Shown: in pieces, positions 8,080-32,524 of the stretch
How positions within the stretch are numbered: the first letter of the stretch is position 1
How the letters are laid out: the number at the start of each line of letters is the position of its first letter
Sequence record: PQ850625.1
Source of the DNA: Escherichia phage SandraMuster_Bas78
Strand: one strand, 5' to 3'
DNA: 46,496 nucleotides
The notes under the pieces: model-generated
Databases searched by the model: none
What the model was told of the DNA's origin: nothing
Seen by the model: the letters and a program-made list of their open reading frames with translations, nothing else
Made by a program: the position numbers and the translations under genes

Positions 8080-8100
8080 AATTTCTTCCTCACTCATCGT

Positions 8101-12501: not shown

Positions 12502-12502
12502 T

Positions 12503-13679: not shown

Positions 13680-13734
13680 CTCCGTATATCTTTTGTTCAT
13701 CATGGGCTGCTATCATTTAATCAGGAGGTAGCCC

Positions 13735-13857
13735 ATGAATATAATCCCTATCACTTACTTTCTCACGCTGTACGCACTCACCAATTCGCCATTGTTTGCA
13801 CTGGCTACCGCCTCATGGTGCTACATCTCCCTGTGTTATAATTCGACCACAAACTAA
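13735..13857 (+). CDS. small hydrophobic protein (40 aa)
   Basis: ATG preceded by AGGAGG; below track cutoff. Confidence 0.3.
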   Translation: MNIIPITYFLTLYALTNSPLFALATASWCYISLCYNSTTN

Positions 13858-13873
13858 CCGTGGAGAGTTAACC

Positions 13874-15753
<1,880 letters not shown>

Positions 15754-15755
15754 TA

Positions 15756-16826
15756 ATGGAAAAGATTATTTTTACCAAAGACCTGGTAGCCAACTCCGCA
15801 GTGGTGGCTGACCAGTGGAAACATCTGACCATCGACCGCAAGGTGTTCTGCAATGCAGAAGCTGAACTGGCGAAAACATACGGTGTTAACGCCACCGCAC
15901 TGGTAACGAAAGATTACTGGCGCGACGTGGATAACGTCACCACCCGCGTTTTCCGCAACGAAGCTGGTCAGGACATGATGGCTGACCTGATGGGCATCGC
16001 GGCAAACATCAACATCGGAAAGACTGTGGCAATCAGCCGCATTGCTTCCGATGCTGGCAAGGTAGTCCGCACTCTGTCTGGTCAGGAGCCGGAAGATTTG
16101 GATAAAACTCGCTACGATTACACTGGCGATGTGATCCCAATCTTCAAAACTGGCTACAGCCGAGAATGGCGCGAGCTGCTGGGTATGCAGTCTGAAGGCT
16201 TCGACCCACTGCTGGACGATCAGGCCAACGTCACCTTTAACCTGCGTTCCGACATGGCGCAGTATCTGCTGACCGGCGACCAGACTCTGAACGTGAACGG
16301 CGTTTACACTGGCTATGGTATCACCAACCACCCGAACACTGTTCAGGTTAACCTGAATGCTTCCGGCGGCCTTAATATCGACCTGCAAACTGCAACGCCA
16401 GACGAAATCGTGACCTTCTTCAATCAGGATTTCCAGGCTATTCTGGATGCGCAGAACGTATTTGAGCAGGTGACTCTGTGGGTTTCTCCGGCAGTGCGTC
16501 GTAGCTTCATGCGTCCGTATTCTGATGCGGCAGGCTTCAAAGGCGGCACTGTTGAGCAGTACATCACGCAGTTTGGCAATGGTCGCATCGGTAAGATTGG
16601 CACCAACTTCCTGCTGACTGGTAACCATTTCGTTGGCTACGTTCGCAACGACATGTACATCCGTCCGCGTGTTGCTCAGCCAGTTTCCACCTACGCGGCA
16701 GCTCGTGCCAACCCGCACGATAACTTTAACTTCCTCGTGTGGTCTGCTTTTGGTTTGCAGATTCGCAAGGACGCCACTGGCAAGTCCAGAGTGTTCAACG
16801 GCTACGGTACGCAAACTCCGGTGTAA
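15756..16826 (+). CDS. major capsid protein
   Basis: 356 aa ORF at the end of the head operon, followed immediately by strong terminator; typical position and size. Confidence 0.65.
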   Translation: MEKIIFTKDLVANSAVVADQWKHLTIDRKVFCNAEAELAKTYGVNATALVTKDYWRDVDNVTTRVFRNEAGQDMMADLMGIAANINIGKTVAISRIASDAGKVVRTLSGQEPEDLDKTRYDYTGDVIPIFKTGYSREWRELLGMQSEGFDPLLDDQANVTFNLRSDMAQYLLTGDQTLNVNGVYTGYGITNHPNTVQVNLNASGGLNIDLQTATPDEIVTFFNQDFQAILDAQNVFEQVTLWVSPAVRRSFMRPYSDAAGFKGGTVEQYITQFGNGRIGKIGTNFLLTGNHFVGYVRNDMYIRPRVAQPVSTYAAARANPHDNFNFLVWSAFGLQIRKDATGKSRVFNGYGTQTPV

Positions 16827-16829
16827 TAA

Positions 16830-16856
16830 AAAAAGGGGCGAAAGCCCCTTTATGAA
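16830..16856 (+). terminator. rho-independent terminator after capsid gene
   Basis: AAAAAAGGGGCGAAAGCCCCTTTAT. Confidence 0.65.
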
Positions 16857-16869
16857 TTTGAGGTGAATA

Positions 16870-17067
16870 ATGGCTAAATACGAAGTGATCGCTCGCGGAA
16901 TCTTTGTTAAAGAGAAGGGCAAGATTCGTGAATTGCAGCTTGGCGAGGTGATTACCGAGCCAGACGAGCATCTGCTACCAAAACTGCGCGTTATGCCAGA
17001 ACTGGAAAAGACTTTCGAAGTCGCAACCCCGCAAGAAAAGACGACAAAGAAAAAGAAAGCAGAGTAA
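16870..17067 (+). CDS. hypothetical small protein with Lys-rich tail
   Basis: Track ORF with AGGTGAATAATG start context. Confidence 0.4.
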   Translation: MAKYEVIARGIFVKEKGKIRELQLGEVITEPDEHLLPKLRVMPELEKTFEVATPQEKTTKKKKAE

Positions 17068-17071
17068 ACTG

Positions 17072-17097
17072 AACCCGCATAATGCGGGTTTTTTATT
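17072..17097 (+). terminator. rho-independent terminator
   Basis: ACCCGCATAATGCGGGTTTTTTATT. Confidence 0.65.
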
Positions 17098-17124
17098 GGG
17101 GATTCCATGGATGCAAAATAAAAG

Positions 17125-17150
17125 AAAAGCCCCATGACGGGGCTTTTGAT
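17125..17150 (-). terminator. bidirectional hairpin terminator ending the minus-strand MTase/clamp operon
   Basis: AAAAGCCCCATGACGGGGCTTTT, A-run and T-run on both sides. Confidence 0.6.
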
Positions 17151-17152
17151 TG

Positions 17153-17692
17153 CTACAGACGCATCGGCATAACAACAATCTTAGCAGTCTCGCCAGATGG
17201 CGCATTAAGACAGCAAACTGCGGCATTTGTGTTTCCATTAAGTTCAAATTTGATACAACTGAATTTAGGATTAAACAGCTTCGCCACTTTCTCAACGTCA
17301 ACCAGATATCCAGCATTGAAGCCAATTTCCTCTGCTGGCAAGGTCTGCTTCGGAATGACGCGATCAATATCAGGGAATCGCCCGTCAATCTCTTCACAGA
17401 TACCAGCACCAACCATAACGCCAGCTTCATCATGATACGTTGCAATTTTCGACTTTGTATCAATGATGGCGTGGTCATAGCGTTTTGTTGGTGACTTGCC
17501 AATCTTGATAATCACATTTTCTGTAAGATTATTATCATGGTTTCCACCAATAAATGCGCGATGACCGTCAGTTGATGCAATACGACCATCAGGCATAAAG
17601 CAAATGCCATTCAGGTAATACCGCACATCGTTGCGCGCCTGAAATATTAATGCTGATTCAAGTAATAGTTTGCCGATTTTTAGTTTCATCAC
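17153..17692 (-). CDS. truncated beta sliding clamp (DnaN) homolog, domains II-III only
   Basis: Translation contains DVRYYLNG, TDGHR, DGRFPD, EIGFN and C-terminal VVMPMRL in the same order as conserved blocks of bacterial DnaN; only 179 aa; start overlaps upstream ORF stop (TGATG). Confidence 0.7.
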   Translation of the reverse strand: MMKLKIGKLLLESALIFQARNDVRYYLNGICFMPDGRIASTDGHRAFIGGNHDNNLTENVIIKIGKSPTKRYDHAIIDTKSKIATYHDEAGVMVGAGICEEIDGRFPDIDRVIPKQTLPAEEIGFNAGYLVDVEKVAKLFNPKFSCIKFELNGNTNAAVCCLNAPSGETAKIVVMPMRL

Positions 17693-17862
17693 TTCACCTT
17701 AATCATATGCTGTTTTGCAACCTTCAGGCACTCCTCAAAAATGCCACCCTTCTTTGCGCTCTGATTGCGCTTGTAATACTGAACTGCCGCATCAATTGCC
17801 ATCTGGTCGATTTCAGGCAGTTTGGTGCGTAGTTGTTTTTCAATGAATTGTTCTGGTGTCAT
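17689..17862 (-). CDS. hypothetical small protein (57 aa), translationally coupled
   Basis: Minus-strand ATG overlaps MTase stop (TAATG) and its stop overlaps the DnaN-like start; below track cutoff. Confidence 0.4.
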   Translation of the reverse strand: MTPEQFIEKQLRTKLPEIDQMAIDAAVQYYKRNQSAKKGGIFEECLKVAKQHMIKVK

Positions 17863-18662
17863 TAAACGGACCTCATGAATGCTTTAATGAATTCTGCTGC
17901 GACTTGTGGAACTATGGCATTGCCATAACCGCGCAATCGTCCCACTCTTGCGGATACCCCATGAGTTGCCTCGCAAAATCCGCCTGGTATGACTCTAGTT
18001 TCCTTATCTGCTCCATGGTTGGGTTTCCATGAATCCCATAAACATGAAGCCACATCTGGCGATAAAGAGTATCGTTCCTGAATTTTCCGTCCTTTCTGTA
18101 AAATGTCTTGCTGAGATCCCCGTAATCCTTCCATCCTCGCGCCGTTGGTGTCGCCCATCCTCGCGCCAAAGATGATTCTTTTCCTTTCCTGTGGAGAGCC
18201 GACGCTGCAAGCTGGCAATACTGACGCCCCGCAGGCGTAGCCTTTGTCTTCCAGGTTAAGGAATACAAAATCGAGCCAGTGCTTCCCAATTGCTGCTGCA
18301 ACCTGCTCTCCAAACAGCAATTCAGGCTTGCACTCTCTGATGAGCCTGAGAAATGCTGGGGCAAGGTGTCGATCGTCGTCAAATCCGAGAGACTTACCGG
18401 CAACGCTAAACGGCTGGCAAGGTGGTGATCCTGTCCAGAGTCGAGTGCTTTCTGGTATTCCTGCCAGCTGGAGTGCAATGGGCCACCCTCCGATTCCGGC
18501 AAAGAAGTGACACTGTGTAAATCCTTCCAGGTCTGAAGGGGTGACTTCGGTGATTGATCGTTCATCGACATATCCGTAAGGAATTAGTTTATTGTTAATT
18601 AATTCACGCAGCCATGCCGCTGCGCCCTTGTCCCACTCATTGTAATAGTGGACCATCATCAC
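17862..18662 (-). CDS. DNA (cytosine-5) methyltransferase
   Basis: C5-MTase motifs FAGIGG (motif I), PPCQPFS (motif IV, catalytic Cys), GEQV (ENV-like), GNAIVPQVA (motif X). Confidence 0.85.
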   Translation of the reverse strand: MMMVHYYNEWDKGAAAWLRELINNKLIPYGYVDERSITEVTPSDLEGFTQCHFFAGIGGWPIALQLAGIPESTRLWTGSPPCQPFSVAGKSLGFDDDRHLAPAFLRLIRECKPELLFGEQVAAAIGKHWLDFVFLNLEDKGYACGASVLPACSVGSPQERKRIIFGARMGDTNGARMEGLRGSQQDILQKGRKIQERYSLSPDVASCLWDSWKPNHGADKETRVIPGGFCEATHGVSARVGRLRGYGNAIVPQVAAEFIKAFMRSV

Positions 18663-19468
18663 ATCTTCTCCAGAATTGCCATCACCTCGTGAATATCAGC
18701 AACAGGAATCTGGATAAACTCCTCATTCTCTGCCACTACATGACCAGCAGGAAGAATAACGTGGTCAGCTGGCTTCAGTAACTCAATCAGTCGGTCTACT
18801 GGCTTAATCTTTTTCGACTTAAGCACCTTCGCCGTTACCTTATCCTTGCCTTGCGCCTTCGCTTCTTCGACTGCCTCGTCGATAACTTTAACCGCATCAT
18901 CGCCATGTTCGCGAGTTACTGCTACGGCATTTGCATAGCTGATTTGCCCTGCACTGATTCGCGCTTTTACTTCGGCTGGCACATCACCCAGTGACAGGTG
19001 CATCTGCACGTCAGAAACTGAGCGCCCTACCTTCTTGGCGATTTCCTCGTTGGTCCAGCCAAAACCCTTCAGTCGCGTGTAAGCCTTTGCGCGTTCAAAC
19101 GGGTCAAGCTGCTTACCCTGACTGGACGACACCATGAAGGCGATTTTATCTGCTTCGCCTCCTGTGAAATCCTTGCACTCAATACGAACAATTGGTGCGC
19201 CACGCTCAATGGCACGCAACGCTCCGAGATAGCGATGCTGACCATCAAGAATGCGGATTCCCTTCTCGTCTGGAATAACTGTTAATGCTGGCAATGGCTG
19301 ACCTGACTCCCAGCACTGCGCGAAATACTCCACATGCTGCTCATCTGCTTCGCGGATGTTGTATCCTGGTTCCAGATAGATTTGCTCAACTGGCACGAGA
19401 TATGTCTTGTTTACCGCGATTCCGTTGCGCGTTTCTTTGTCTGAATAGATTTTGCTGAGTGTTTTCAT
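18659..19468 (-). CDS. ParB-like nuclease-domain protein with HTH
   Basis: ILDGQHRYLGALRA matches the ParB N-terminal domain signature; central HTH-like segment WTNEEIAKKVGRSVSDVQMHL; ATGA overlap with MTase. Confidence 0.7.
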   Translation of the reverse strand: MKTLSKIYSDKETRNGIAVNKTYLVPVEQIYLEPGYNIREADEQHVEYFAQCWESGQPLPALTVIPDEKGIRILDGQHRYLGALRAIERGAPIVRIECKDFTGGEADKIAFMVSSSQGKQLDPFERAKAYTRLKGFGWTNEEIAKKVGRSVSDVQMHLSLGDVPAEVKARISAGQISYANAVAVTREHGDDAVKVIDEAVEEAKAQGKDKVTAKVLKSKKIKPVDRLIELLKPADHVILPAGHVVAENEEFIQIPVADIHEVMAILEKM

Positions 19469-19827
19469 TGTTTCTTTCCTAATGCTTTCTTGATAGATTC
19501 TTCAGCTAACAGCAATTCTTCTGGGTATTGTTCATTCCAGTTTTGTTTGTATGCTTTGTTAAGCATTTTTTGCAGAGCTTCAAGCAACTCAGGTGCCGCC
19601 GCCATTAAATTAAAATCATGCTCAACACTGCCATCAATCTCCCAATGCATCCCGTTGTATTTGGCACCCTTACTAGAGAAGGCGATGTTTCTGTCATCGT
19701 CATAGTGACAACCCGGCGTGTCATCAGCTCTACAAGACGGGTAAACCGCTGCGCAACCACCGCGAATATCTGCAACCCACGGACCGGGCGTGCCTTTAAA
19801 TTCTTTCATCTCCATCACCTCTAACAT
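19465..19827 (-). CDS. hypothetical protein, first gene of ParB/MTase operon
   Basis: Track ORF; stop overlaps ParB-like start. Confidence 0.5.
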   Translation of the reverse strand: MLEVMEMKEFKGTPGPWVADIRGGCAAVYPSCRADDTPGCHYDDDRNIAFSSKGAKYNGMHWEIDGSVEHDFNLMAAAPELLEALQKMLNKAYKQNWNEQYPEELLLAEESIKKALGKKQ

Positions 19828-19836
19828 TTATTGTTG

Positions 19837-19883
19837 TTTCTACGTCACTAACTATAAACGCCTCATCAATCTACGTCAACAGG
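19837..19883 (+). promoter_or_regulatory. regulatory region with two direct copies of the TCTACGTCA motif
   Basis: TTTCTACGTCA and AATCTACGTCAACAGG upstream of plus-strand operon starting 19927. Confidence 0.4.
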
Positions 19884-19926
19884 AATATGCTAAAATCATG
19901 CTAATCAAACAACAGGAGATTTAAAT

Positions 19927-20046
19927 ATGGGTTCAACCAATTCGCCGTCTCGTTCACGCGCCACTGGCAATACAAAAACTGGCGGCAAAGCTGGCGCAGT
20001 GAAGCCAAACGGTTCCACCCGTTCACCATCGCGCGGTAAAAAATAA
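19927..20046 (+). CDS. small basic Ser/Lys/Arg-rich protein (39 aa)
   Basis: ATG preceded by ACAGGAGA; translation MGSTNSPSRSRATGNTKTGGKAGAVKPNGSTRSPSRGKK; stop overlaps next start (TAATG). Confidence 0.3.
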   Translation: MGSTNSPSRSRATGNTKTGGKAGAVKPNGSTRSPSRGKK

Positions 20047-20486
20047 TGTTCTGCGCAGATATTGCCATCATGATCATGTATGTGCTGGGTTTTGCCTGCA
20101 CGGGCATGGTTGCGTTTCTGGTGTTCATTCCGGCAATGGCGATGTCTGTGTATCTTGGATGGGTGCTTGCTGATTCATTTCCCGCCGAATATCTGTATTA
20201 CCTTGCGCAGTCTATGGTCTGGCTATTCCCGGCTATTGCACTGCGCAAAAGTACAAAAATGGCGCTCTGCGTGCTGACGATGAGCCTTTACGAATGGCTG
20301 GTAGCGATAGAGTCATTCGTATGGGAATTTATCACGCCTGTAGAAACGCCGCTTCATGCGCAGTACGCATTTATTATTATCGGCATCCATCTGTTCATCC
20401 TTTCCATCACTTTTAAATGGGGCGGCGAAATTGGACATTATTCTTGGCGTGGTCGCCATTGTTTTTTCGCTGATTCAAGTCTATAA
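20046..20486 (+). CDS. multi-pass membrane protein
   Basis: Four or more hydrophobic segments in 146 aa. Confidence 0.5.
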   Translation: MFCADIAIMIMYVLGFACTGMVAFLVFIPAMAMSVYLGWVLADSFPAEYLYYLAQSMVWLFPAIALRKSTKMALCVLTMSLYEWLVAIESFVWEFITPVETPLHAQYAFIIIGIHLFILSITFKWGGEIGHYSWRGRHCFFADSSL

Positions 20487-20518
20487 GTGCTGGAAACATA
20501 TCATCAGCGAGACACGCA

Positions 20519-20803
20519 ATGAACGAAACACTAAGGCAGGCAGCAGAGCAAGTTATAAGCGGGACGACAGGACAGGTGATTGACAAGGCTGGATATGCCT
20601 CCATTGGTACTGGTATTGGACTGAAAGTTGCAGAGCAAACGCCTGTCACGCAGTCTTATTTTGAGGCTATGATTCCACACAGTCTGACGGAGTGGGCGGC
20701 AGTAGCGTCAATCCTTGGCGCTCTGTCTCTGGTAATAAAGAACCTGTTTGAAATGTGGTGGAAAGTCCGGGAGTCAAAGAGAAATGACAGCACCAACACC
20801 TGA
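20519..20803 (+). CDS. hypothetical protein with C-terminal TM segment
   Basis: Track ORF; hydrophobic stretch WAAVASILGALSLVI. Confidence 0.45.
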   Translation: MNETLRQAAEQVISGTTGQVIDKAGYASIGTGIGLKVAEQTPVTQSYFEAMIPHSLTEWAAVASILGALSLVIKNLFEMWWKVRESKRNDSTNT

Positions 20804-21176
20804 AGAACTGGTCAGCCAAATGGCGAATCGCGGAATGACCATCACCACAACAGATGCGTCTGGCATTCTGTGTCTTGTGGCGTCAATCAGTGAATGCCTT
20901 GAGCTGAACTACCCCAATGATGAATGCCGGCAAAATGCGATCATGCTGTGGGCTTCAATCCTGATTAGCGCAAATACAGCTGGGCGCTACGTCACCAGTC
21001 AGAGTGCACCATCTGGAGCTTCACAGTCATTTTCGTATGGCAGCAAGCCGTGGGTGGCGCTGTACAATCAGATGAAACTACTGGATATAGCTGGATGCAC
21101 TGGCGATTTGGTGGAAGACCCTGACGGAAGCGGTAAGCCGTGGTTTGCGGTTGTGCGTGGGAGTAAGTGCAAATGA
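20784..21176 (+). CDS. putative head-tail connector/adaptor protein
   Basis: ATG at 20784 inside track ORF 20748..21176; position between capsid block and tail genes; synteny only. Confidence 0.35.
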   Translation: MTAPTPEELVSQMANRGMTITTTDASGILCLVASISECLELNYPNDECRQNAIMLWASILISANTAGRYVTSQSAPSGASQSFSYGSKPWVALYNQMKLLDIAGCTGDLVEDPDGSGKPWFAVVRGSKCK

Positions 21177-21514
21177 CTTCGCTGGCTAACTGGAGCTATA
21201 CGCAACCATGCACAATCTGGCATAAGAGCGGCACTGACAAGTACGGCAAGCCAACTTTTGACGCACCAGTAAGCATCATGTGCGATTATGGCTTTAATGA
21301 TGATGTATCAACTGACGCGAAAGGCAATGAGATTGTGCAGAAAAATACCTTCTGGACAGAATACACTGGCGCTAAGGTTGGTGATTACATCATGATTGGA
21401 ACAGTGACAGAAGTCGACCCGCTGGCGGCTGGCGCAAACCAGATTCTGAATGTGATTAATTATGGCAACACGTTCAATCGTGCTGAGCCGCCTGACTTTG
21501 CACTGGTGACATAA
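21167..21514 (+). CDS. putative head-tail joining protein
   Basis: Track ORF, overlapping neighbours; synteny only. Confidence 0.35.
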   Translation: MQMTSLANWSYTQPCTIWHKSGTDKYGKPTFDAPVSIMCDYGFNDDVSTDAKGNEIVQKNTFWTEYTGAKVGDYIMIGTVTEVDPLAAGANQILNVINYGNTFNRAEPPDFALVT

Positions 21515-21978
21515 TGCCAGCGAAATTAAGAGGCATTCAGGAGGCAATTCGCAAAACTGAGCAGATAGCTGGCACTATCACGGCAGAAAAAGCGGTGAGA
21601 GCAATCAAAAGTGCCAACTATATTATTCGCACAGAAGCGGCAACAATAACGCCAATTGATACATCAAACCTTATCAATAGCCAATATGATACGGTGGAAG
21701 TGTCAGGGACGAGGATAACAGGAAAAATAGGATATTCTGCTGATTATGCTCTATATGTTCACCGCGCACCGGGGACACTAAAAGGAAAGCCACGCGCTCA
21801 TTTTGGCAAGACCAATAACCTTTCAGATTTTGGCCCGAAACAGGTTAAGGAATTTGGTGGCGGCTCGCTGACAGGTAACTACTGGGACCCAAATGCCGAG
21901 CCACAATTCCTGACCAAGGCGGCGCAGCGCACAAAAGACCTGGTTGATAGTGTGATTAAGAAGGAGATGAAACTGTGA
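21514..21978 (+). CDS. putative tail completion protein (HK97 gp10-like)
   Basis: Size, position and N-terminal helical region resemble HK97 gp10-family neck proteins; low-confidence similarity. Confidence 0.4.
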   Translation: MPAKLRGIQEAIRKTEQIAGTITAEKAVRAIKSANYIIRTEAATITPIDTSNLINSQYDTVEVSGTRITGKIGYSADYALYVHRAPGTLKGKPRAHFGKTNNLSDFGPKQVKEFGGGSLTGNYWDPNAEPQFLTKAAQRTKDLVDSVIKKEMKL

Positions 21979-22349
21979 ACATGCTTGAGCTGGTTGATGC
22001 ATATCTTCAGGATGCAGGATTGTATGATGGCTGGACTTCGCAGTTGCAGTTCTGGAACGACACCGGAGATGGCAACGAGCAATTTATTGTTCTGCAATCC
22101 AATGGTGGCACGCAGGTGATGGACGGCCTCGGCGGTGACTTCTATTTCTCGCTGTACGTTGTTGGGAAACAAGGCCAGTACAATGTTGCTGATGTCGACG
22201 CTAAAGCCAATGAGATTATCGAATACATCAAGACACATCCGATTGATTCATGCGTGAACTACATCCAGTTGCAGGCTCCTCTAGGACGACCAATGTTGAC
22301 GGAGGAGAAGCGCCCTGTGCATGAGTTGCTTTTGCGGGTTGTGAAATAA
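21975..22349 (+). CDS. putative tail terminator / neck protein
   Basis: Track ORF, last gene before ORF-poor region; synteny only. Confidence 0.35.
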   Translation: MNMLELVDAYLQDAGLYDGWTSQLQFWNDTGDGNEQFIVLQSNGGTQVMDGLGGDFYFSLYVVGKQGQYNVADVDAKANEIIEYIKTHPIDSCVNYIQLQAPLGRPMLTEEKRPVHELLLRVVK

Positions 22350-22352
22350 ATA

Positions 22353-22380
22353 AAGCCGCACGAAGCGGCCTTATTGCTGG
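22353..22380 (+). terminator. weak hairpin terminator
   Basis: AGCCGCACGAAGCGGCCTT followed by ATTGCTGGTTT. Confidence 0.3.
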
Positions 22381-23025
22381 TTTAAGCATTGCCAGCATGC
22401 TTTCTTAATATCCAGCCCCGTAACCCATACATACCCCTACATATGATTGCGATAATGCTGGATATTAAGTGTTGTGGTGGCCGGTGCTGATATCCGGCAT
22501 AAGGCGCTTATTCGGCGGCGTCGAGCTTGCTTATTCGCTTGAGCCATCCTCGTGAGTCAGCCACGTCCCACTGCGCATCAGCCTGCGCATTCACCACAAC
22601 GGAAATAGCACTGGATAACCAAGCGCGCAGACTCTTCACGATTATCTGCTCAATGCTCTTACCTGTTGTGTGCCACGTTTCGTGTGGCTTACGGCAACGA
22701 CATTACCGGATTATTCGCTGCACCCTTGATGGATTTACTAAGGCGACATGCCCGTTGTTACCCACGAATGAGAGCACTATAAGTTACGCTGCCTCGGACG
22801 TACCTACGCTGCCTGTTCTTAAATACTCTCATTGGTGGGTGCCCGTTATTAATCACAGCGGGCCACTGCGCCGAATTTGTTTACAAGGAGTCGGAAGACC
22901 TTGCTGACTTACAGGCTATTACGCCGCCATCAGAACAACATCATCGTTTGCATTTATCTTTGTGGTCAGTTTCTAAAAAGTCCGCAAAGTCGCTCACGAA
23001 AACTATCTGAAATACAATCTACACC

Positions 23026-23060
23026 ACAAAATAATCACTGTCAACACCTGTGATATAATC
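23026..23060 (+). promoter_or_regulatory. extended -10 promoter upstream of major tail gene
   Basis: AATCTACACCA ... TGTCAACACC ... TGATATAAT (TGnTATAAT); near-identical element at 24535..24586. Confidence 0.5.
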
Positions 23061-23095
23061 ATCGCGTTAGCAGCTAACACAATTCGGAGATCGAA

Positions 23096-23812
23096 ATGGC
23101 TATTTGTGCAAATGATAAGGGCGTTCTGGTTGGTCGCATGACCCGCCTGTTCCTTGCTGAAGGGTGCGGCGACGCAGTTCCGGATGCAGAAGACTGGAAA
23201 TATTTAGGCTCAACCACCAGTAAAGGTGTTGACTACTCGCCGCAGACCACCACGTCGGAAGCTGATACCACTGGCGGCTTTGTTTCCACTCTCGTTACCA
23301 GCTCTGATATGACCATCAGTGCAGAGGTTGAAATCCGCAAGAATGACCCGAGCGATGAGTTTGGCTTCCATCGTCTGGTTGAGATTTACGCCACTGAACT
23401 GAAGGCGCGTCGCCAGCCTTCCTTGTGGGTGCGTCAGGTTACTGGTGCAACTATCGTTACCGCGTACTGCAACATTACCAGCATCAGTTACGAAGGTGGT
23501 ACAAACGACATCGTTACTGGCAGCCTTGAGTTTAAGGTTTACGATTCTGACAGCGTTACCGTAGAGAGCCTTGAGCCTCTGGCATTCACTACAGACCTGC
23601 CATCAACTGGCACGGCTGGCAGCCCGTTAACTGTTGCTGTTGAAGGTGGTGTCGCTCCTTACACTTATGTATGGCGCAAAGATGGCGTGGTTGTCGGCAG
23701 CGAATCAGGCGCGTCTCTGGCAATCCCTACCGCTGGCGTGTATACCGTCACGGTGACTGATTCGTCTACTGACCCTGAAATTATTATCAGCACGGCTTGC
23801 ACTGTGTCCTGA
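23096..23812 (+). CDS. major tail protein with C-terminal Ig-like domain
   Basis: 238 aa ORF upstream of chaperone/tape measure; C-terminal segment (TGTAGSPLTVAVEGGVAPYTYVW...VYTVTVTD) looks like a Big_2-type Ig domain as on lambda gpV. Confidence 0.65.
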   Translation: MAICANDKGVLVGRMTRLFLAEGCGDAVPDAEDWKYLGSTTSKGVDYSPQTTTSEADTTGGFVSTLVTSSDMTISAEVEIRKNDPSDEFGFHRLVEIYATELKARRQPSLWVRQVTGATIVTAYCNITSISYEGGTNDIVTGSLEFKVYDSDSVTVESLEPLAFTTDLPSTGTAGSPLTVAVEGGVAPYTYVWRKDGVVVGSESGASLAIPTAGVYTVTVTDSSTDPEIIISTACTVS

Positions 23813-23815
23813 TAA

Positions 23816-23846
23816 ATAAAAAAGCCCCGGAAGGGGCTTTGTTTTA
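23816..23846. terminator. bidirectional terminator between convergent genes
   Basis: AAAAAAGCCCCGGAAGGGGCTTTGTTTTA. Confidence 0.6.
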
Positions 23847-24053
23847 TTCTTGCGGTGGCTCTGGTAGTGGCATCCAGTGTGTTACGTCATCCAAGATATT
23901 TCCTGATAAATACGTGAAAGCCCTATATTTTTTGTAATCAATTGGATTTACAACCCAGTTCCAATATGCGGCTACGATTTCACCTTGACTAAATACCAAT
24001 AACATTTGGGTTTCATCCGGCATCCTTTCACTGCACTTAATCCACTGTCTCAT
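23844..24053 (-). CDS. hypothetical protein
   Basis: Track ORF in minus-strand island within the tail cluster. Confidence 0.45.
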   Translation of the reverse strand: MRQWIKCSERMPDETQMLLVFSQGEIVAAYWNWVVNPIDYKKYRAFTYLSGNILDDVTHWMPLPEPPQE

Positions 24054-24193
24054 ATCACCTTATCCTCATCAAAAATCACACCAATCACACGAAGCAAGTC
24101 TTTCGCCATGCGTTCAGCTTCTTCATAGTCGTAACCCGCATCAACATACAAATCAGTGTAGAAAATCAGGTCAGCTTTTGTTTGTTCGTTCAT
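24050..24193 (-). CDS. hypothetical small acidic protein (47 aa)
   Basis: Minus-strand ATG; stop overlaps next start (ATGA); below track cutoff. Confidence 0.3.
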   Translation of the reverse strand: MNEQTKADLIFYTDLYVDAGYDYEEAERMAKDLLRVIGVIFDEDKVI

Positions 24194-24202
24194 GGGCAAG
24201 CC

Positions 24203-24496
24203 TTACATCCCTTGCTTTTCACACAAAGAAACAGCCACATCACGCAATTGCTCTTTGGTCATATCCTTGCGTGCATAAACCATTTCTACGATAGCAAGGC
24301 CGATTATTTCTGCTGCCTCGTTGTTTTTTGCCGAGCCTTTTACTACCACCTCTGCAAGGTTTTTACTGACGCCATTATCGCGAACTTCAGCCGTGTTTAA
24401 TGCGATGTCGCCAATATTCTTGCACACCTCTGAAGTTGCTACAGCAGAGAAAGAAGAAACCAATAGTGCAGACGCAATCAACATTTTAATTTTCAT
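24203..24496 (-). CDS. small secreted/periplasmic protein
   Basis: N-terminal signal peptide MKIKMLIASALLVSSFSAVA then 77 aa soluble region; RBS GAGGTGAG. Confidence 0.5.
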   Translation of the reverse strand: MKIKMLIASALLVSSFSAVATSEVCKNIGDIALNTAEVRDNGVSKNLAEVVVKGSAKNNEAAEIIGLAIVEMVYARKDMTKEQLRDVAVSLCEKQGM

Positions 24497-24534
24497 AACT
24501 CACCTCATTCATTCATCACTCGTTTCGATGACTT

Positions 24535-24586
24535 GAATCTACATCACCACCTAACAGGTGTCAACACCACTGAGATGATATAATCA
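24535..24586 (+). promoter_or_regulatory. extended -10 promoter upstream of chaperone / tape measure operon
   Basis: AATCTACATCACC ... TGTCAACACC ... TGATATAAT, same architecture as 23026..23060. Confidence 0.5.
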
Positions 24587-24613
24587 ACATCAGTCAAATT
24601 CAGGATGCAAAAC

Positions 24614-25321
24614 ATGAGCAATCGCACGCCACTAACAGAAATCGGAGAGATGCGCATCTCGCTTTCCGACAGGAGTTTTTTCTTTAAGCCATCATTTCGC
24701 GCCATGAATGAAATCGGCACACCAAAGGAAATCGTCGAGGTGTACGCCAGACTCAATGGCATTGATTATGTTTCGCCGTTGCAGCACGTCGAATACCTGC
24801 CATTTGGCGCGCAGATGCAGGTTATGAAAACCATCAGCAAACCTGTGTATGGTCGCCATGTACTGAGTGCGGCCTATATCGTCATGCAGTCATGCTGTGA
24901 AGATAATATTTCTGTGTTGATTGGAGGATGGAAGCCAACGCCGCGTGGCGTGCGATATGTCCCCGGCATCATGCCAGTGAACGACATTATTATTATTGCG
25001 CGCAACCTGATGCAGCATGGCATCATCGGTAAGTCACCACTCAAAGTTCCTGAACGTCTGGAAGAACAGGGCAAGAAAACCACAAACGAGTTTCATGCGT
25101 CTCAATACATCATCTCAGCACGCACGCATTTCGACATGACGCGCGATGAGGCAGAAAACCTGTCTATGACAGAGTTTCAGATGATGATTAAGAATAAATA
25201 TCCAGAGCCGAAAGGGTTAACGAAAGAAGAGCGCGCGGCAGAGTACGATCAGGCTAAAGCAGACCGTGAGCGCATGAAGGCACTGGCTGAACGCAAAGCG
25301 AAAAAAGCGAGGAATACATAA
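24614..25321 (+). CDS. putative tail assembly chaperone
   Basis: ORF immediately upstream of tape measure; ATG at 24614 has AGGA upstream (track start 24605 also ATG); basic C-terminus. Confidence 0.4.
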   Translation: MSNRTPLTEIGEMRISLSDRSFFFKPSFRAMNEIGTPKEIVEVYARLNGIDYVSPLQHVEYLPFGAQMQVMKTISKPVYGRHVLSAAYIVMQSCCEDNISVLIGGWKPTPRGVRYVPGIMPVNDIIIIARNLMQHGIIGKSPLKVPERLEEQGKKTTNEFHASQYIISARTHFDMTRDEAENLSMTEFQMMIKNKYPEPKGLTKEERAAEYDQAKADRERMKALAERKAKKARNT

Positions 25322-27804
25322 TGGCTGAAGAAGTCGGCGGAATTGTCTATGAAGTCGGGATGGATGTATCCGGGCTGACGACTGGCGGGCAAAAGGTAAA
25401 CAAGGTTCTTCAGGAGATTGAGAAGTCAATTGATGAGTCAATTACCGGGATAAATAAACTTGATACCGGATTAAAAAACACCGCATCGACAGCTGAGAAA
25501 TCTGGCAGGAGTTTCTCCAGTTTAAATAACGCCATGAGACAGGGCGGCTACCAGATTCAGGACTTTGTAGTTCAGGTGCAGAGCGGACAATCGGCACTCG
25601 TTGCTTTAAGTCAACAAGGTAGTCAGTTATTAAGCGTCTTTGGTTCTGGAGGCGCAGTTGCCGGTGCATTGCTAACCATCGGTACGGTAATCGTTGGCTC
25701 ATTAATTGCTGGCATGGATAACGCAGCCGTTTCCACAAAGGCGCTCACCGCAGCACAGCAGCGACTTGCTGACATATTCCAGCTTTCTGCTAATGGAGTT
25801 GTAGTTCTCTCTGACAAATTCGCAACACTGGCTAAACAGTCAGAAAACGCCGCCAGAGCACAGTTAACAATGGCTCTGATTGATGCAAACAATATCATCA
25901 AGGCTTCAGTGCAGGGCGTCAATGAGCTTGGCGACGCACTTGGCTCATGGAAAGCGCCACTATCAGCCGCCATCAGCCAGCTTGACACACTGAAAGCAAG
26001 AGGCATTGATGTAAACACAGCACTCAAGAATCTTGGCGGGACATATGAGGGTAATATCCTCGGACTAAACCAGCTTAATCAGGTGGTAAAAAGTCTGGCA
26101 GATGAGTTTGGCATAAGCGCCGAGGATGCTTTGAAGCTGGTTGAAGCTCTGGCGGCGGTGAGAAAAAACGCCAATCCTGAAACAATAGCAGAATTACGTG
26201 ACCTGACTGTTGACCTTAGTCAGAAATATGGATATGCAAACAAGTCGCTATCTGAACTGACTGGCAAGGTTGGCGAATATTCCATTTCAGCAGATCAGGC
26301 AGCAGAATCTACAAAAATGGCTACCGACATGCTTAACGGTCACAAGGTAGCTTCAGAAGAGGATGCGAGAGCAACTGAAGAAAACACGAAAAGGCTTCAG
26401 GCTTACATCCAGTCGATCAAGGAAGAAGGTGAAACCATCGCCTTTACCGCCAGACAAAAGGCTCTGTACAGAGCAGAGCAGCTTGGAGCAAGTGACGCAG
26501 ATAAGCAAACAATCAACTCGTCGTTCGACAAGATAGAGGCTTACAAAGCTGAACTTGCCGCAAAGAAAGAGCAGGAAAGGCAAGATAAAAAACGCATAAC
26601 TGCATCAACAAAACAGGCCAATCTTGAAGAGTCGGTAGCTCAGAAGCTGGAAAAATTACGCCAGCAAACCATGCTCAATGCCACGTCTACCAGCGAACTA
26701 TCACGCGAGCAAGCAATTCTCAACGCGCAGCAATCGCTTGGCAAGGCCGCCACTCAGGAGCAAATAAAACTGGCTGGTGAGTACGCTGCGAAGATTTGGG
26801 ACCAGAAGAATGCATTGAAGGAGCAAGCAGAAGCGGAAAAAGAAAAGCAACGCGTAGAAAAATCATATCAAGGGTTGCGCGCTATTGCATCGCCAACCAC
26901 TGGCATTGACAGTGAATACCAGCAACGTATGGCTGACCTTGACGCCTACGCCGCAGCATATCCGCAGAAAATCACGGAGATTGAGCAGACTCGCGCAGCA
27001 ATTGAAGCACAATACCGCCAACAGCGAATGGACGCTATGTGGGCTGAATGGCAGCAACAAAGCCTCGGTGCGCAACTGTTCGGTACCGCTCTTGATTCAG
27101 CAATGAGTACGGCATCAAACAGCATCACCGGATTGCTTACCGGAACGATGAGCGTTCAGGATGCCATGCGCAGCCTCGGCTCTACGGTGCTGAACTCTCT
27201 GGTAAACAGCTTCATTGAAATGGGTGTGCAGTGGGTTAAATCTGCTGTTATGGGGCAGACTGCACAGGTTGCGGCTACGGCAACCACAACGGCGGCGCAA
27301 ACGGCAGGATTGGCAACCACAACAGCAGCATCTACGGCGGCGGCAGCAACCACTACGGCGGCATGGACTCCGGCAGCAATCGTCGCATCAATCGGCTCAT
27401 TCGGCGGGGCGGCTGCAATTGGGGTAGGTGCCGTTCTCGGAGCGCTGGCGATGGGCATTGCTGGCAAGCGTAAAAATGGTGGCCCTGTTAGTGCCGGAAG
27501 TATGTACGAAGTTGGCGAAAATGGCTTGCCTGAAATATTCCAGGCGTCCAACGGCCGCCAGTATATGATTCCCGGTAACGATGGATCAGTTATCAGCAAC
27601 AAAGACCTTACAGGAGGTGGTAGTGGCGTTGTGGTTTATAATAACGTGATAAATAACAGCTCAGCGCAGGTTAGCAGCAGCGCCAGAGATAACGGTGACG
27701 GCAGCGTGACAATTGAGACTATCGTTAGTGATATTGAGAACAACGGCGCGATAGGGCAGGCTATTTCAAGAAATTACTCAACAAACCGGAGAGCAACAGA
27801 ATAA
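25321..27804 (+). CDS. tail length tape measure protein
   Basis: 827 aa, largest tail ORF, long Ala/Gln/Glu-rich helical regions and C-terminal hydrophobic Ala/Gly-rich segment. Confidence 0.85.
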   Translation: MAEEVGGIVYEVGMDVSGLTTGGQKVNKVLQEIEKSIDESITGINKLDTGLKNTASTAEKSGRSFSSLNNAMRQGGYQIQDFVVQVQSGQSALVALSQQGSQLLSVFGSGGAVAGALLTIGTVIVGSLIAGMDNAAVSTKALTAAQQRLADIFQLSANGVVVLSDKFATLAKQSENAARAQLTMALIDANNIIKASVQGVNELGDALGSWKAPLSAAISQLDTLKARGIDVNTALKNLGGTYEGNILGLNQLNQVVKSLADEFGISAEDALKLVEALAAVRKNANPETIAELRDLTVDLSQKYGYANKSLSELTGKVGEYSISADQAAESTKMATDMLNGHKVASEEDARATEENTKRLQAYIQSIKEEGETIAFTARQKALYRAEQLGASDADKQTINSSFDKIEAYKAELAAKKEQERQDKKRITASTKQANLEESVAQKLEKLRQQTMLNATSTSELSREQAILNAQQSLGKAATQEQIKLAGEYAAKIWDQKNALKEQAEAEKEKQRVEKSYQGLRAIASPTTGIDSEYQQRMADLDAYAAAYPQKITEIEQTRAAIEAQYRQQRMDAMWAEWQQQSLGAQLFGTALDSAMSTASNSITGLLTGTMSVQDAMRSLGSTVLNSLVNSFIEMGVQWVKSAVMGQTAQVAATATTTAAQTAGLATTTAASTAAAATTTAAWTPAAIVASIGSFGGAAAIGVGAVLGALAMGIAGKRKNGGPVSAGSMYEVGENGLPEIFQASNGRQYMIPGNDGSVISNKDLTGGGSGVVVYNNVINNSSAQVSSSARDNGDGSVTIETIVSDIENNGAIGQAISRNYSTNRRATE

Positions 27805-29177
27805 TGGCTATCATCAAATACCCTGACTGGCTTCCACTTGCACAACGCGCCAGTAAAAACCTGACACAGCAAACTCCGTTCCGCAGTGACCAGCCTGCCG
27901 TCGGCGCGCCAATTTTTCAGAAGCTGACAACTGATATTGCGGCGACATGGAGCCTGACGTGGAAGTTTACGCTGGCAGAGGAGCGCGCTTTTATCCAGTG
28001 GTTGCGTAGCCCGAGTTACCTCAACAAAGCAAACAACTGGTTCACCATGATGATTGACCTCGGCGGCAGCGGATTGCAGGAGCAGACGCTGCATTTTACC
28101 GATTATCCGGTGCAAACCAGCATTGATGGCGGCGTGGTCACGTGGACCGGCAATGTTATTGCCAAAAAACTCAATAACACTATGGATGAGTTTGATGATG
28201 TTCTGGTTGAACTGGATTACAGATGGTATAGCTGGCTGGATGAAGTCGTTAATCGCGAACTCCCGCAAGTCTATATGACACCGATACTGCACATGCCAAT
28301 TAACATGTTGTCACCAACGCTTGATAGCCGCATTGTTTACGAGGGGTCACAGATTTACTATATCAACCGAAACGGCAATCTTGTGCAATCAGCCGCAAAT
28401 GAATGGCCTCTTACGTTTATTGACGGAACTGCAGTTGGGCGTGTGCCGCCGGAAAAGGCTGCTACCAATGTGGTAGAACATTCTAACAACTTACTATCTA
28501 CATCATTTTCACGTACCAGAACAACAACCACGGCGAGTTCTTTGGCGTTATTCCAAGAAACTTATGCTGCTAAATTAACCGCAACGTCGGTATCAGGTAA
28601 CCATTATATAAACAAGGCAGAGGCCCCAGAACAAGAAACAAGATACTCTATTAGTGCTATTATAAAAGCAGATGAGTACCAGTCGGCAGCGGTAGCCATC
28701 GGCAACCGAGCCGCTTTAGATAATTTCCAGTATGCCTATGTTGACTTAGCCTCCGGCTATTTGATATCAGGCGACACCTCAAGGTCGTTCGTAAGCAATC
28801 TTGGTGGTGGGTGGTATCACGTTTCAATGTCAGCGGACACTAACGACTCCGGCGGATTGATTTATTCGCAGATAAACATGTTGTCGCCGTCTAACTCCCT
28901 CACCTTCACAGGGGATGATATCAGTGGGTTCATTATAGCCCTAATCCAGATGGAGCCTTCAGAGTTTGCCTCCTCCCCGATAGTGACCGAGGAGTCACCG
29001 GTAACTCGTCCAACGGCATCAGCAAAAGTGGCAATGAACGGCGCGACAAGCATCGACATTACCTATTCCGACGGCTCTGTGGTAAACGTTCTGGCGGCAG
29101 ATGATTACGCAACCATCCCGCAGGCTGATTCCGCGTGGGGTAGCAAGTACATCACAACAATAAAATTCAACGCCTAA
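27804..29177 (+). CDS. minor tail protein (gpM-like N-terminus with C-terminal extension)
   Basis: First gene after tape measure, ATGA overlap; position equivalent to lambda M. Confidence 0.45.
   Translation: MAIIKYPDWLPLAQRASKNLTQQTPFRSDQPAVGAPIFQKLTTDIAATWSLTWKFTLAEERAFIQWLRSPSYLNKANNWFTMMIDLGGSGLQEQTLHFTDYPVQTSIDGGVVTWTGNVIAKKLNNTMDEFDDVLVELDYRWYSWLDEVVNRELPQVYMTPILHMPINMLSPTLDSRIVYEGSQIYYINRNGNLVQSAANEWPLTFIDGTAVGRVPPEKAATNVVEHSNNLLSTSFSRTRTTTTASSLALFQETYAAKLTATSVSGNHYINKAEAPEQETRYSISAIIKADEYQSAAVAIGNRAALDNFQYAYVDLASGYLISGDTSRSFVSNLGGGWYHVSMSADTNDSGGLIYSQINMLSPSNSLTFTGDDISGFIIALIQMEPSEFASSPIVTEESPVTRPTASAKVAMNGATSIDITYSDGSVVNVLAADDYATIPQADSAWGSKYITTIKFNA

Positions 29178-32524
<3,347 letters not shown>

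What the first reader, a model, noticed from the sequence alone, without database searches (positions are those of the whole stretch)
23844..24496. Opposite-strand moron island inside the tail gene cluster encoding a secreted small protein
Three minus-strand genes are inserted between the major tail gene and the chaperone/tape-measure genes, bracketed by a bidirectional terminator and a divergent promoter region. The first (24203..24496) has a clear signal peptide and no lipobox, so is a periplasmic or secreted protein. Such morons in tail clusters often encode superinfection exclusion or receptor-masking factors, or virulence/fitness factors.
Basis: partly seen in the sequence, partly recalled or inferred. 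Interest (0 to 1): 0.5.

Follow-up and report, generated by a model that had tools for sequence, protein, structure and literature searches.

The report
Secreted-protein mini-operon inside phage tail genes
A virulent E. coli phage carries a small, self-contained three-gene unit inserted backwards in its tail genes; its first gene encodes a small exported four-helix protein of an uncharacterised phage family that most likely protects the infected cell from further phage attack, though this has not been tested.

Summary
Three tightly packed minus-strand genes lie between the major tail gene and the DUF6246/tape-measure genes of an O16-specific Skatevirus. They are 24203-24496, 24050-24193 and 23844-24053. 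A sigma-70 promoter (TTGACA-17-TAGATT) and a bidirectional terminator flank them, and both are conserved in every relative examined.

Distant relatives have the two tail genes adjacent, so the unit is a genuine insertion. In 33 Skatevirus islands the promoter-proximal slot holds this gene, a true T4 Imm homologue, or both, and never neither. That fits a role in superinfection immunity.

Its alleles do not follow tailspike, endolysin or holin types. This argues against receptor masking and against a specific lysis partner.

Function is inferred, not shown. Interest is moderate.

Outside the finding, an apparently undescribed tmRNA-like RNA gene lies about 800 nt upstream of the island.

The parts
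23821..23840 (.). Bidirectional intrinsic terminator shared by the major tail gene (+) and the island operon (-)
   Evidence: The scan scores the hairpin on both strands. Fold energies are -17.5 and -18.0 kcal/mol, and the hairpin plus T-run is conserved in 22 of 22 related loci.
23844..24053 (-). Gene 3: a 69-aa DUF551 protein. It is cytoplasmic-type, with constant ends and a middle that is swapped between relatives.
   Evidence: PF04448 at E 2e-22 and 80 bits. Alleles are 30-46% identical between phages whose flanks are 95-98% identical. The ends MSQWIKCSERMPE and THWMPLPEPPQE are conserved.
24050..24193 (-). Gene 2: a 47-aa acidic protein (p47). It is the most conserved gene of the island and the only one shared with the Klebsiella-phage branch.
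   Evidence: phrog_17424 at E 2e-36 over its full length. Identity is 91-100% in Skatevirus loci and dN/dS is 0.043. A 44-aa homologue is the first gene of the DP01 tail island.
24206..24436 (-). Gene 1, mature part (T21-M97). It is a four-helix bundle with an invariant Cys25-Cys92 pair and the invariant or near-invariant residues R39, D40, G42 and Y74.
24437..24496 (-). Gene 1, Sec-type signal peptide (residues 1-20). The predicted cleavage is AVA|TS, and there is no lipobox.
   Evidence: The sequence shows an n-h-c layout. pLDDT is below 50 for residues 1-19. Relatives alternate SAVA|T and AVSA|T, both of which obey the -3/-1 rule.
24501..24506 (-). Ribosome-binding site GAGGTG for gene 1
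   Evidence: Read directly from the sequence. It is invariant in 21 loci.
24536..24564 (-). Sigma-70-type promoter TTGACA-N17-TAGATT driving the island operon
   Evidence: Scores 10 of 12 in the scan. The hexamers are invariant while the spacer varies in 21 loci. It is one of three copies of this promoter type in the window, where 0.32 are expected by chance.
24576..24584 (+). Divergent plus-strand extended -10 element (TGATATAAT), which probably restarts tail-gene transcription (DUF6246, tape measure) after the terminator
   Evidence: Read directly from the sequence. Invariant in 21 loci. No transcript data are available.

Best explanation
The island is a moron-type insertion: a three-gene operon placed backwards between the major tail gene and the tail chaperone/tape-measure genes in the common ancestor of the Skatevirus/Roufvirus-like siphoviruses.

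Proposed mechanism:
1. Host RNA polymerase transcribes the operon from a strong sigma-70 promoter and stops at the terminator it shares with the major tail gene. Expression should therefore be independent of the late tail operon, and probably early.
2. The first product is exported through Sec and cleaved after Ala20.
3. It is oxidised to a single N-to-C disulfide and folds into a 77-residue four-helix, saposin-like bundle in the periplasm.
4. There it most likely acts on the cell envelope to make the infected cell refractory to secondary phage attack, at a step after adsorption (cell-wall penetration or DNA entry). It would do the same job as, or work alongside, the T4-Imm-type inner-membrane protein that occupies the next position in most relatives. 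That gene is absent from this window.
5. The other two genes (a 47-aa acidic protein and a DUF551 protein) are cytoplasmic accessory genes of unknown role.

Shown: the genes, their selection, the conservation of promoter and terminator, the insertion status, the fold model, and the SP/Imm occupancy pattern (SP = the secreted gene-1 protein).

Inferred: export, cleavage, the disulfide, timing of expression, and the exclusion function.
For: - Anatomy and conservation.
- Purifying selection.
- Insertion status: MTP (major tail protein gene) and DUF6246 are adjacent in 11 distant relatives, L094-L104.
- Lower GC than the flanks.
- Export features and an invariant Cys pair across a family that is only 23-36% identical.
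- Confident four-helix model.
- The neighbour gene in relatives is a true T4 Imm homologue.
- Of 33 Skatevirus islands, 13 have SP+Imm, 8 have SP only, 12 have Imm only and none has neither. In every case these genes are promoter-proximal (22-locus subset).
- SP evolves faster than its flanks. In Skatevirus it is 78-96% identical against 95-98% for the flanks, with dN/dS 0.11 against 0.03-0.05. A third allele class of 37-38% identity exists in L075 and L078. In the Klebsiella branch there are two allele classes (>=90% and 55-59%) in flanks that are mostly about 95-100% identical.
- There are tandem paralogues (L029) and fused duplicates (P0127, P0133). These are patterns typical of conflict genes.
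- Distant family members sit among early/replication genes of unrelated phages, including a temperate one.
Against: - There is no experimental evidence for export or for exclusion.
- There is no homology to any characterised exclusion protein. T4 Spackle gives hhalign probability 11%, over the signal peptide only. PADLOC gives no hit.
- The absence of the 'neither' class is only borderline given shared ancestry; about 3 such islands would be expected if the two genes were independent.
- In the relative seszw the island survived in all 71 lineage records, including 69 genome-reduced mutants. A comparable opposite-strand island next to the lysis genes was deleted in the same mutants (PMC9825161). 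This hints at a benefit in ordinary single-host propagation that a pure exclusion factor need not give. It could equally reflect selection during high-density passaging, or simply poor CRISPR targeting of these short genes.
Confidence: 0.45

Rival explanations
1. The secreted protein helps the phage's own productive infection. Possible roles are remodelling or stabilising the envelope, protecting the cell from premature lysis or envelope stress, or assisting the phage's own genome entry or release. On this reading it is a quasi-essential infection factor, not an exclusion factor.
For: - The island was never lost in the 71 seszw-lineage records, which include 69 CRISPR genome-reduced mutants down to 36.6 kb.
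- In the smallest mutant the block WT 11253-29736, which contains the island, is intact. The opposite-strand island next to the lysis genes is mostly deleted in that mutant.
- The authors targeted all genes except structural genes, known essential genes and likely regulatory elements, and 53 of 81 genes proved removable (PMC9825161).
Against: - 12 of 33 natural Skatevirus islands lack the gene entirely and carry only Imm. It is therefore not needed by the lineage.
- I could not see the paper's Table S1. The genes may have been poorly targeted because they are short, or protected by their position between essential tail genes and their regulatory signals.
- Retention could be due to the 47-aa gene, which is nearly universal.
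Confidence: 0.2
2. The secreted protein is a lysis-timing regulator. It would act in the periplasm on the holin, endolysin or spanin, analogous to the T4 RI antiholin (also a 97-aa exported protein).
For: In the Klebsiella/Roufvirus branch the homologue is always the first gene of an operon divergent from the endolysin-holin-spanin cassette. This holds in DP01, pYD38-A and 18 of 18 IMG/VR loci.
Against: - In Skatevirus the gene sits about 15 kb from the lysis genes.
- In the Klebsiella branch its two allele classes do not track endolysin type (T4-type or lambda-R-type) or holin allele.
- Distant homologues lie in replication or early regions, not next to lysis genes.
- The holin here is a 79-aa protein with little periplasmic mass.
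- RI has an uncleaved signal-anchor-release domain, whereas this protein has an AXA cleavage site.
Confidence: 0.12
3. The secreted protein masks or removes the phage's own receptor (O-antigen), for example by interfering with O-antigen assembly at the periplasmic face of the inner membrane. This would stop progeny from adsorbing to infected cells and debris.
For: - The phage depends on O16 O-antigen through a tailspike that is 98.7% identical to those of Bas77/79 and 98.0% to that of Bas80 (PMC11990801).
- The authors of that paper note that these phages have no recognisable receptor-inactivating strategy.
- A saposin-like fold would fit lipid or lipid-linked glycan binding.
Against: - Alleles do not follow receptor specificity. 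The protein is 86.6% identical to that of Bas77, which has the same tailspike. It is 94.8% and 92.8% identical to those of a Salmonella phage and a Shigella phage with different tailspikes.
- The family also occurs in capsule-targeting Klebsiella phages, in Vibrio and Aeromonas phages, and in unrelated phages.
- The fold match is weak.
Confidence: 0.05

Closest known systems
T4 Spackle (Sp, gp61.3; PF25676)
   Same: - The precursor is 97 aa with a cleavable Sec signal peptide.
- The mature periplasmic protein is small and mostly helical, with two cysteines.
- It is encoded by a virulent phage that also uses an Imm protein. In most Skatevirus relatives a T4 Imm homologue is the adjacent gene.
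   Different: - There is no sequence relationship. hhalign gives 11% probability over the signal peptide only. PF25676 scores 151 bits on T4 Sp, while the best E-value among the 25 family members is 0.24.
- Spackle's target, a gp5-type tail lysozyme, has no counterpart here. The only tail-associated wall-hydrolase candidate is a gpK-like NlpC/P60 domain at 29560-30126.
T4 Imm / Imm_superinfect (PF14373, phrog_1039)
   Same: It occupies the next position in the same operon in 25 of 33 relatives. It is also an early envelope protein of a virulent phage. Imm, SP or both are always present.
   Different: Imm is a two-helix inner-membrane protein unrelated to the secreted protein, and it is absent from this window (9 nt separate gene 1 and gene 2). 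Its function in Skatevirus is untested.
Saposin-like proteins (SAPLIP: saposins, NK-lysin/granulysin, caenopores)
   Same: - About 80 residues, forming a four- to five-helix bundle.
- A disulfide ties the start of helix 1 to the end of the last helix.
   Different: - It has one disulfide where saposins have three, and sequence identity is 5-13%.
- The mature protein is slightly acidic, not cationic.
- Lipid binding is untested.
- This is a resemblance in fold topology only.
Morons of lambdoid and other siphoviruses (the Juhala/Hendrix concept; for example HK97 gp15, T1/phi80 Cor, T5 Llp), named from my own knowledge
   Same: It is an extra transcription unit with its own promoter and terminator, inserted between two late genes that are adjacent in relatives. 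Its base composition differs from the flanks, and it encodes an envelope-directed protein.
   Different: - The host phage is virulent.
- The slot is ancient and fixed across a whole clade.
- It holds a modular multi-gene set (SP, Imm, p47, a NinX-like gene, DUF551), not a single gene.
- The product is a soluble periplasmic protein, not a lipoprotein or membrane protein.
- It was not lost under experimental genome reduction.
T4 RI antiholin
   Same: Also 97 aa and exported to the periplasm. In one branch of the family the gene lies next to the lysis cassette.
   Different: RI has a signal-anchor-release domain, not a cleavable signal peptide. There is no co-variation with holin or endolysin, and the gene is not lysis-linked in this window.

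Membership tests
Moron (autonomous insertion in a late operon) | Own promoter upstream | tested here: met
   TTGACA-N17-TAGATT at 24564..24536. The hexamers are invariant and the spacer variable in 21 loci. This is sequence evidence only; no transcript data exist.
Moron (autonomous insertion in a late operon) | Own terminator downstream | tested here: met
   Bidirectional hairpin at 23821-23840.
Moron (autonomous insertion in a late operon) | Lies between two genes that are adjacent in related phages | tested here: met
   In L094-L104 (DUF6246 38-46% identical) the major tail gene match ends roughly 60-330 nt before the DUF6246 gene, with no island between them.
Moron (autonomous insertion in a late operon) | Base composition differs from the flanks | tested here: met
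   GC is 0.41-0.44 across 23800-24800 against 0.47-0.53 in the flanks.
Moron (autonomous insertion in a late operon) | Dispensable for lytic growth | tested here: inconclusive
   Never deleted in 69 genome-reduced seszw mutants. Natural relatives nevertheless lack gene 1 in 12 of 33 islands. The paper's Table S1 was not available.
Sec/signal peptidase I secreted protein | n-region with positive charge, hydrophobic h-region, small residues at -3 and -1 | tested here: met
   MKIK / MLIASALLVSSFS / A18-V19-A20|T21. The layout is conserved across the family. Judged by rule, not by SignalP.
Sec/signal peptidase I secreted protein | No lipobox | tested here: met
   The first Cys (C25) is preceded by S-E-V. 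Some distant members do have lipobox-like LLGC or LVSC sequences (LPAM_1 hits in 2 members).
Sec/signal peptidase I secreted protein | Actual export and cleavage | not testable with these tools
   Needs PhoA or Bla fusions, or N-terminal sequencing.
PHROG 2315 (function unknown) | Significant match to the family profile | tested here: met
   E 1.4e-18 for the window protein. The Klebsiella homologue and four distant members also match.
T4 Spackle (PF25676) | Sequence match to the family | tested here: not met
   0 Pfam families for the window protein. hhalign probability is 10.7%, over the signal peptide only.
T4 Spackle (PF25676) | Same fold | tested here: not met
Imm_superinfect (PF14373) | Presence of the domain in this island | tested here: not met
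   The window has no such ORF between genes 1 and 2. It is present in 25 of 33 relatives, and the relatives' protein matches T4 Imm.
Saposin-like proteins | Saposin fold topology | tested here: inconclusive
Saposin-like proteins | Six-cysteine, three-disulfide pattern | tested here: not met
   Only two cysteines, C25 and C92.
DUF551 (PF04448), gene 3 | Match above the Pfam gathering score | tested here: met
   80.1 bits against a cut-off of 22.

The most novel reading that the evidence does not exclude
PHROG 2315 is a new class of phage periplasmic effectors. On this reading they are saposin-fold, single-disulfide proteins that bind a lipid or lipid-linked envelope component at the periplasmic face of the membrane. 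By doing so they would close the route by which incoming phage genomes cross the envelope. They would be functionally interchangeable with T4-Imm-type membrane proteins, which would explain why every Skatevirus island carries one or the other.
Probability: 0.12. Interest if true: 0.65.

Novelty: new variant of a known kind. Interest (0 to 1): 0.4.

Why it matters
Virulent siphoviruses that use O-antigen as their receptor are reported to have no recognisable way of protecting infected cells or progeny (PMC11990801). This island is a concrete candidate for that role.

It pairs, or alternates, a true T4 Imm homologue with an uncharacterised exported protein family that is spread over many phage groups. 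If the exported protein blocks secondary infection, three things would follow:
- A structurally new type of exclusion factor would be added to the known set.
- A function would be assigned to PHROG 2315.
- A simple testable system would exist in the BASEL collection, which contains natural SP-only and SP+Imm phages; Imm-only relatives exist elsewhere.

If it does not, the finding remains an ordinary accessory operon of unknown function.

Tried and rejected
- **Known families for gene 1.** Pfam, NCBIfam and PADLOC gave nothing beyond signal-peptide noise.
- **Solved structures by sequence.** A profile search found no hit better than E 0.5.
- **Fold searches.** Three were run. The full-length model gave only generic helical matches. 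The mature-only model gave weak saposin-like matches. The afdb50 library was unavailable.
- **T4 Spackle homology.** Rejected.
- **Second word-indexed protein search with the family profile.** Its listing was filled with the close relatives already known, apart from one distant protein (P0129, already found), and was poor value.
- **Profile-based locus search.** It failed because the family has no stretch conserved enough.
- **Specific lysis partner.** Rejected for lack of co-variation with endolysin or holin.
- **Receptor masking.** Rejected as the main reading for lack of co-variation with the tailspike.
- **Paralogue next to the window's own lysis genes.** None was found; the ORFs in 6825-8097 are unrelated.
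- **Literature.** No paper was found on DUF551 function beyond domain listings. No paper was found on this protein family or on saposin-like phage periplasmic proteins.
- **Genome-reduction paper.** Its supplementary gene table was not held.

Full report
**What the window is.** The region 23000-25400 is 94% identical to Escherichia phages Bas77 and Bas79 and 92-93% identical to Salmonella phages of the Skatevirus/Saltrevirus group. The BASEL paper describes these as virulent small siphoviruses of 46-48 kb. They depend on O-antigen through a single tailspike (PMC11990801). The window's tailspike (32564-34471) is 98.7% and 98.6% identical to those of Bas77 and Bas79, and 98.0% to that of Bas80. 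This is therefore an O16-specific E. coli Skatevirus. The closest annotated genome has no integrase or repressor.

**Check of the observation.** Three minus-strand ORFs lie between the major tail gene and the DUF6246 gene. The major tail gene is at 23096-23812 (phrog_853). The DUF6246 gene is at 24605-25321, with a probable true start at 24614, and is followed by the tape-measure gene at 25321-27804.
- Gene 1 is 24203-24496 (97 aa).
- Gene 2 is 24050-24193 (47 aa from the ATG; the tool's TTG start adds two codons).
- Gene 3 is 23844-24053 (69 aa).
- The genes are tightly packed. Nine nt separate genes 1 and 2, and genes 2 and 3 share an ATGA overlap. Genes 1 and 3 have good ribosome-binding sites (GAGGTG and GAGGATAAGGTG).
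- The convergent stop codons of gene 3 and the major tail gene flank a GC-rich hairpin at 23821-23840, with T-runs on both strands.
- Upstream of gene 1 lies TTGACA-N17-TAGATT (24564..24536).
- In 21 related loci both hexamers are invariant while the spacer varies. The terminator hairpin is kept in 22 of 22 loci.
- A divergent plus-strand extended -10 (TGATATAAT, 24576-24584) is equally conserved. It probably restarts tail-gene transcription after the terminator.
- The same promoter type occurs at two other places in the window, where 0.32 copies are expected by chance.
- Pairwise dN/dS over 21-22 loci is 0.11 for gene 1 and 0.043 for gene 2. The two flanking tail genes give 0.048 and 0.030. 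The two island genes tested are real genes under purifying selection.

**The secreted protein.** I refer to the gene-1 product as SP.
- Its N-terminus is a textbook Sec signal: MKIK, then a 13-residue hydrophobic core, then A-V-A|T.
- Relatives alternate SAVA|T and AVSA|T, and both obey the -3/-1 rule.
- There is no lipobox before Cys25.
- A profile search of 1.84 billion representative proteins found only 24 family members at E below 0.001. They are 82-260 aa long and nearly all have the same signal-peptide layout.
- Across the family C25, R39 and C92 are invariant. D40, G42 and Y74 are nearly so.
- All tested members fall into PHROG 2315, function unknown. None has a Pfam family.
- The full-length AlphaFold model leaves residues 1-19 disordered.
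- The mature part, modelled with a 25-sequence alignment, gives pLDDT 96.3 and pTM 0.84, with four helices.
- In an up-down four-helix bundle the two cysteines (start of helix 1, end of helix 4) lie at the same pole. The conserved RDxG loop and the Tyr at the end of helix 3 lie at the opposite pole. This last point is inferred from topology, because I could not inspect coordinates.
- T4 Spackle has the same length and layout but is unrelated in sequence. It does not appear among the fold matches.

**The island in relatives.** In 33 complete Skatevirus-type loci the gene order runs as follows:
1. the promoter;
2. SP and/or a 64-aa two-helix membrane protein;
3. p47;
4. an optional NinX-like gene (phrog_444);
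5. DUF551;
6. the terminator.

The membrane protein is a genuine homologue of T4 Imm. It scores 64 bits on PF14373, T4 Imm itself scores 58 bits, and the two are 36% identical (E 2e-11).

Occupancy of the promoter-proximal slot is 13 SP+Imm, 8 SP only, 12 Imm only and 0 neither. The window has the minimal SP-only form.

p47 is nearly universal and 91-100% identical. The DUF551 gene keeps constant ends while its middle is exchanged. Alleles are 30-46% identical in flanks that are 95-98% identical.

In eleven more distant relatives (L094-L104) the major tail and DUF6246 genes are adjacent, with no island. The unit is therefore a true insertion.

In the Klebsiella/Roufvirus branch the tail island exists and starts with a p47 homologue. 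The SP homologue, however, is the first gene of a different opposite-strand operon, divergent from the endolysin. The gene has therefore moved between two promoter-proximal slots.

**Tests that discriminate between functions.**
- SP diverges faster than its neighbours in both branches. In the Klebsiella branch two allele classes (>=90% and 55-59% identity) sit in flanks that are mostly about 95-100% identical (the 290-aa gene further downstream is itself variable). Those classes do not follow endolysin type or holin allele. That weakens the idea of a specific lysis partner.
- In Skatevirus the window's SP is closer to those of a Salmonella phage and a Shigella phage (94.8% and 92.8%) than to that of Bas77 (86.6%), which has the same tailspike. 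That weakens type-specific receptor masking.
- Distant family members lie among early or replication genes of unrelated phages. One sits next to DNA polymerase as a tandem pair of paralogues. One is in a temperate phage. One is beside DpdA. One is in a bacterial chromosome.

**Experimental data from the literature.** Yuan et al. applied iterative CRISPR genome reduction to seszw, a Skatevirus with the same SP-p47-DUF551 island (PMC9825161). They targeted all genes except structural genes, known essential genes and likely regulatory elements. Fifty-three of 81 genes proved removable.

In the public phage collection, 71 seszw-lineage records carry the major tail gene. All 71 carry the SP gene at full length, and 70 carry p47+DUF551 at >=99% identity.

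The smallest mutant (36,655 bp) keeps the block WT 11253-29736, which contains the island. It has lost most of the comparable opposite-strand island next to the lysis genes.

This suggests the island is not freely dispensable in that setting. I could not see the gene-by-gene table, and retention could be due to p47 or to poor targeting of short genes.

**Interpretation.** The anatomy is solid. It is a moron-type, promoter-to-terminator accessory operon fixed in one slot of a phage clade.

The best-supported function for SP is a periplasmic role in superinfection immunity at a post-adsorption step. The main evidence is its constant association or alternation with a true Imm homologue at the promoter-proximal position. 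Supporting evidence comes from its export signals, its faster and allele-like evolution, its duplications, and its presence among early genes elsewhere. I put this at about 0.45.

The rivals, with my estimates:
- a factor that aids the phage's own infection (0.2);
- a lysis-timing regulator (0.12);
- receptor masking (0.05).

The remainder is unknown.

**Novelty.** The kind of system is known: small exported phage proteins encoded in accessory units, such as Spackle, Imm, Cor and Llp. This protein is unrelated to all of them. It has a different fold, belongs to an uncharacterised family, and shows an unusual either/or pattern with Imm. I rate it a new variant of a known kind, of moderate interest.

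**Side finding outside the given coordinates.** The roughly 750-nt gap upstream of the major tail gene contains no convincing ORF, no tRNA and no Rfam family. Directly downstream of the second copy of the TTGACA-N17-TAGATT promoter (23044..23016, minus strand) lies a conserved RNA-like element.
- It matches 571 phage records of unrelated families. It is present in 664 of 5,426 E. coli genomes and in 603 plasmid records, most of them non-mobilizable and, among the records listed, about 80-120 kb in size.
- It carries a tmRNA-type tag frame preceded by AUAAAU: GCA AAC GAT GAT GTT GTT CTG ATG GCG GCG TAA, which encodes ANDDVVLMAA.
- Seven divergent copies all keep a 10-codon frame ending in MAA or AVA followed by TAA. 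The variants are ANDDLMLMAA, ANEEMYLAVA, ANDNVFLAVA and ANDAQFLAVA.
- The element sits inside tRNA clusters, or in the late-leader region between Q and the holin gene of lambdoid phages.
- Sub-threshold Rfam matches to tmRNA models align the tag region.
- RNAalifold finds 26 pairs, 10 of them with compensatory changes. One of these helices encloses the stop codon.
- No tRNA-like domain was seen, and ARAGORN is negative.
- A 2014 survey lists phage ssrA only in mycobacteriophages and Bacillus phage G (PMC4131195).
- My literature searches found no description of this element.

Noticed in passing
window 22811-23019, minus strand (the element may extend to about 22650): A tmRNA-like RNA gene lies directly downstream of a TTGACA-N17-TAGATT promoter (23044..23016). 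It has a conserved 10-codon tag frame, AUAAAU|GCA AAC GAT GAT GTT GTT CTG ATG GCG GCG TAA (ANDDVVLMAA), followed by covarying hairpins. No recognisable tRNA-like domain was found: ARAGORN is negative and the Rfam tmRNA hits are sub-threshold. It occurs in 571 phage records of unrelated families, in 664 of 5,426 E. coli genomes, and in about 600 plasmid records, most of them non-mobilizable. It often sits inside tRNA clusters or in the Q-holin late leader. I found no description of it in the papers searched.
   Followed up: partly
window 8185-8463 (+): A 92-aa ORF is a fragment of a T4-type lysozyme (PF00959, profile positions 55-114 of 125). It sits just upstream of the lambda-R-like endolysin (8453-8917). 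Klebsiella-branch relatives have either an intact T4-type endolysin or this same fragment plus the R-type gene. The fragment therefore looks like a remnant of an endolysin replacement. It is nevertheless retained in the minimal seszw genome.
   Followed up: partly
window 23016-23044 (-), 24536-24564 (-), 44990-45018 (+): Three copies of one promoter type, TTGAC(A/G)-N17-TAGATT, each with a shared GTG(A)TG just before the -10 hexamer. Only 0.32 copies are expected by chance. This is probably a class of host-RNA-polymerase promoters used by the phage.
   Followed up: partly
window 23844-24053 (-) and the same gene in L010-L028 and L060-L093: The DUF551 gene behaves as an exchangeable cassette. 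The ends MSQWIKCSERMPE and THWMPLPEPPQE are constant, while the middles are unrelated (30-46% identity) in genomes that are otherwise 95-98% identical.
   Followed up: partly
window 24605-24616 (+): The DUF6246 gene more likely starts at ATG 24614 than at 24605. AGGA lies 8 nt upstream of 24614, and the Bas77 and seszw annotations give 235 aa.
   Followed up: yes
L029 6001-6599; proteins P0127 and P0133: The secreted-protein family occurs as a tandem pair of paralogues next to a DNA polymerase gene in an unrelated phage contig. It also occurs as two-domain fused proteins.
   Followed up: no
L075 and L078 (IMG/VR Skatevirus-type loci), positions about 2180-2487: A third, strongly divergent allele class of the secreted protein (37-38% identity to the window's) occupies the same island position, in flanks that are 90-97% identical.
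   Followed up: no
window 6825-8097 (-): A second opposite-strand accessory operon (53, 93, 71 and 202 aa) lies divergent from the lysis cassette. None of its products matches a Pfam family. In Klebsiella-branch relatives this slot begins with the secreted-protein homologue. In the minimal seszw mutant most of it is deleted.
   Followed up: partly
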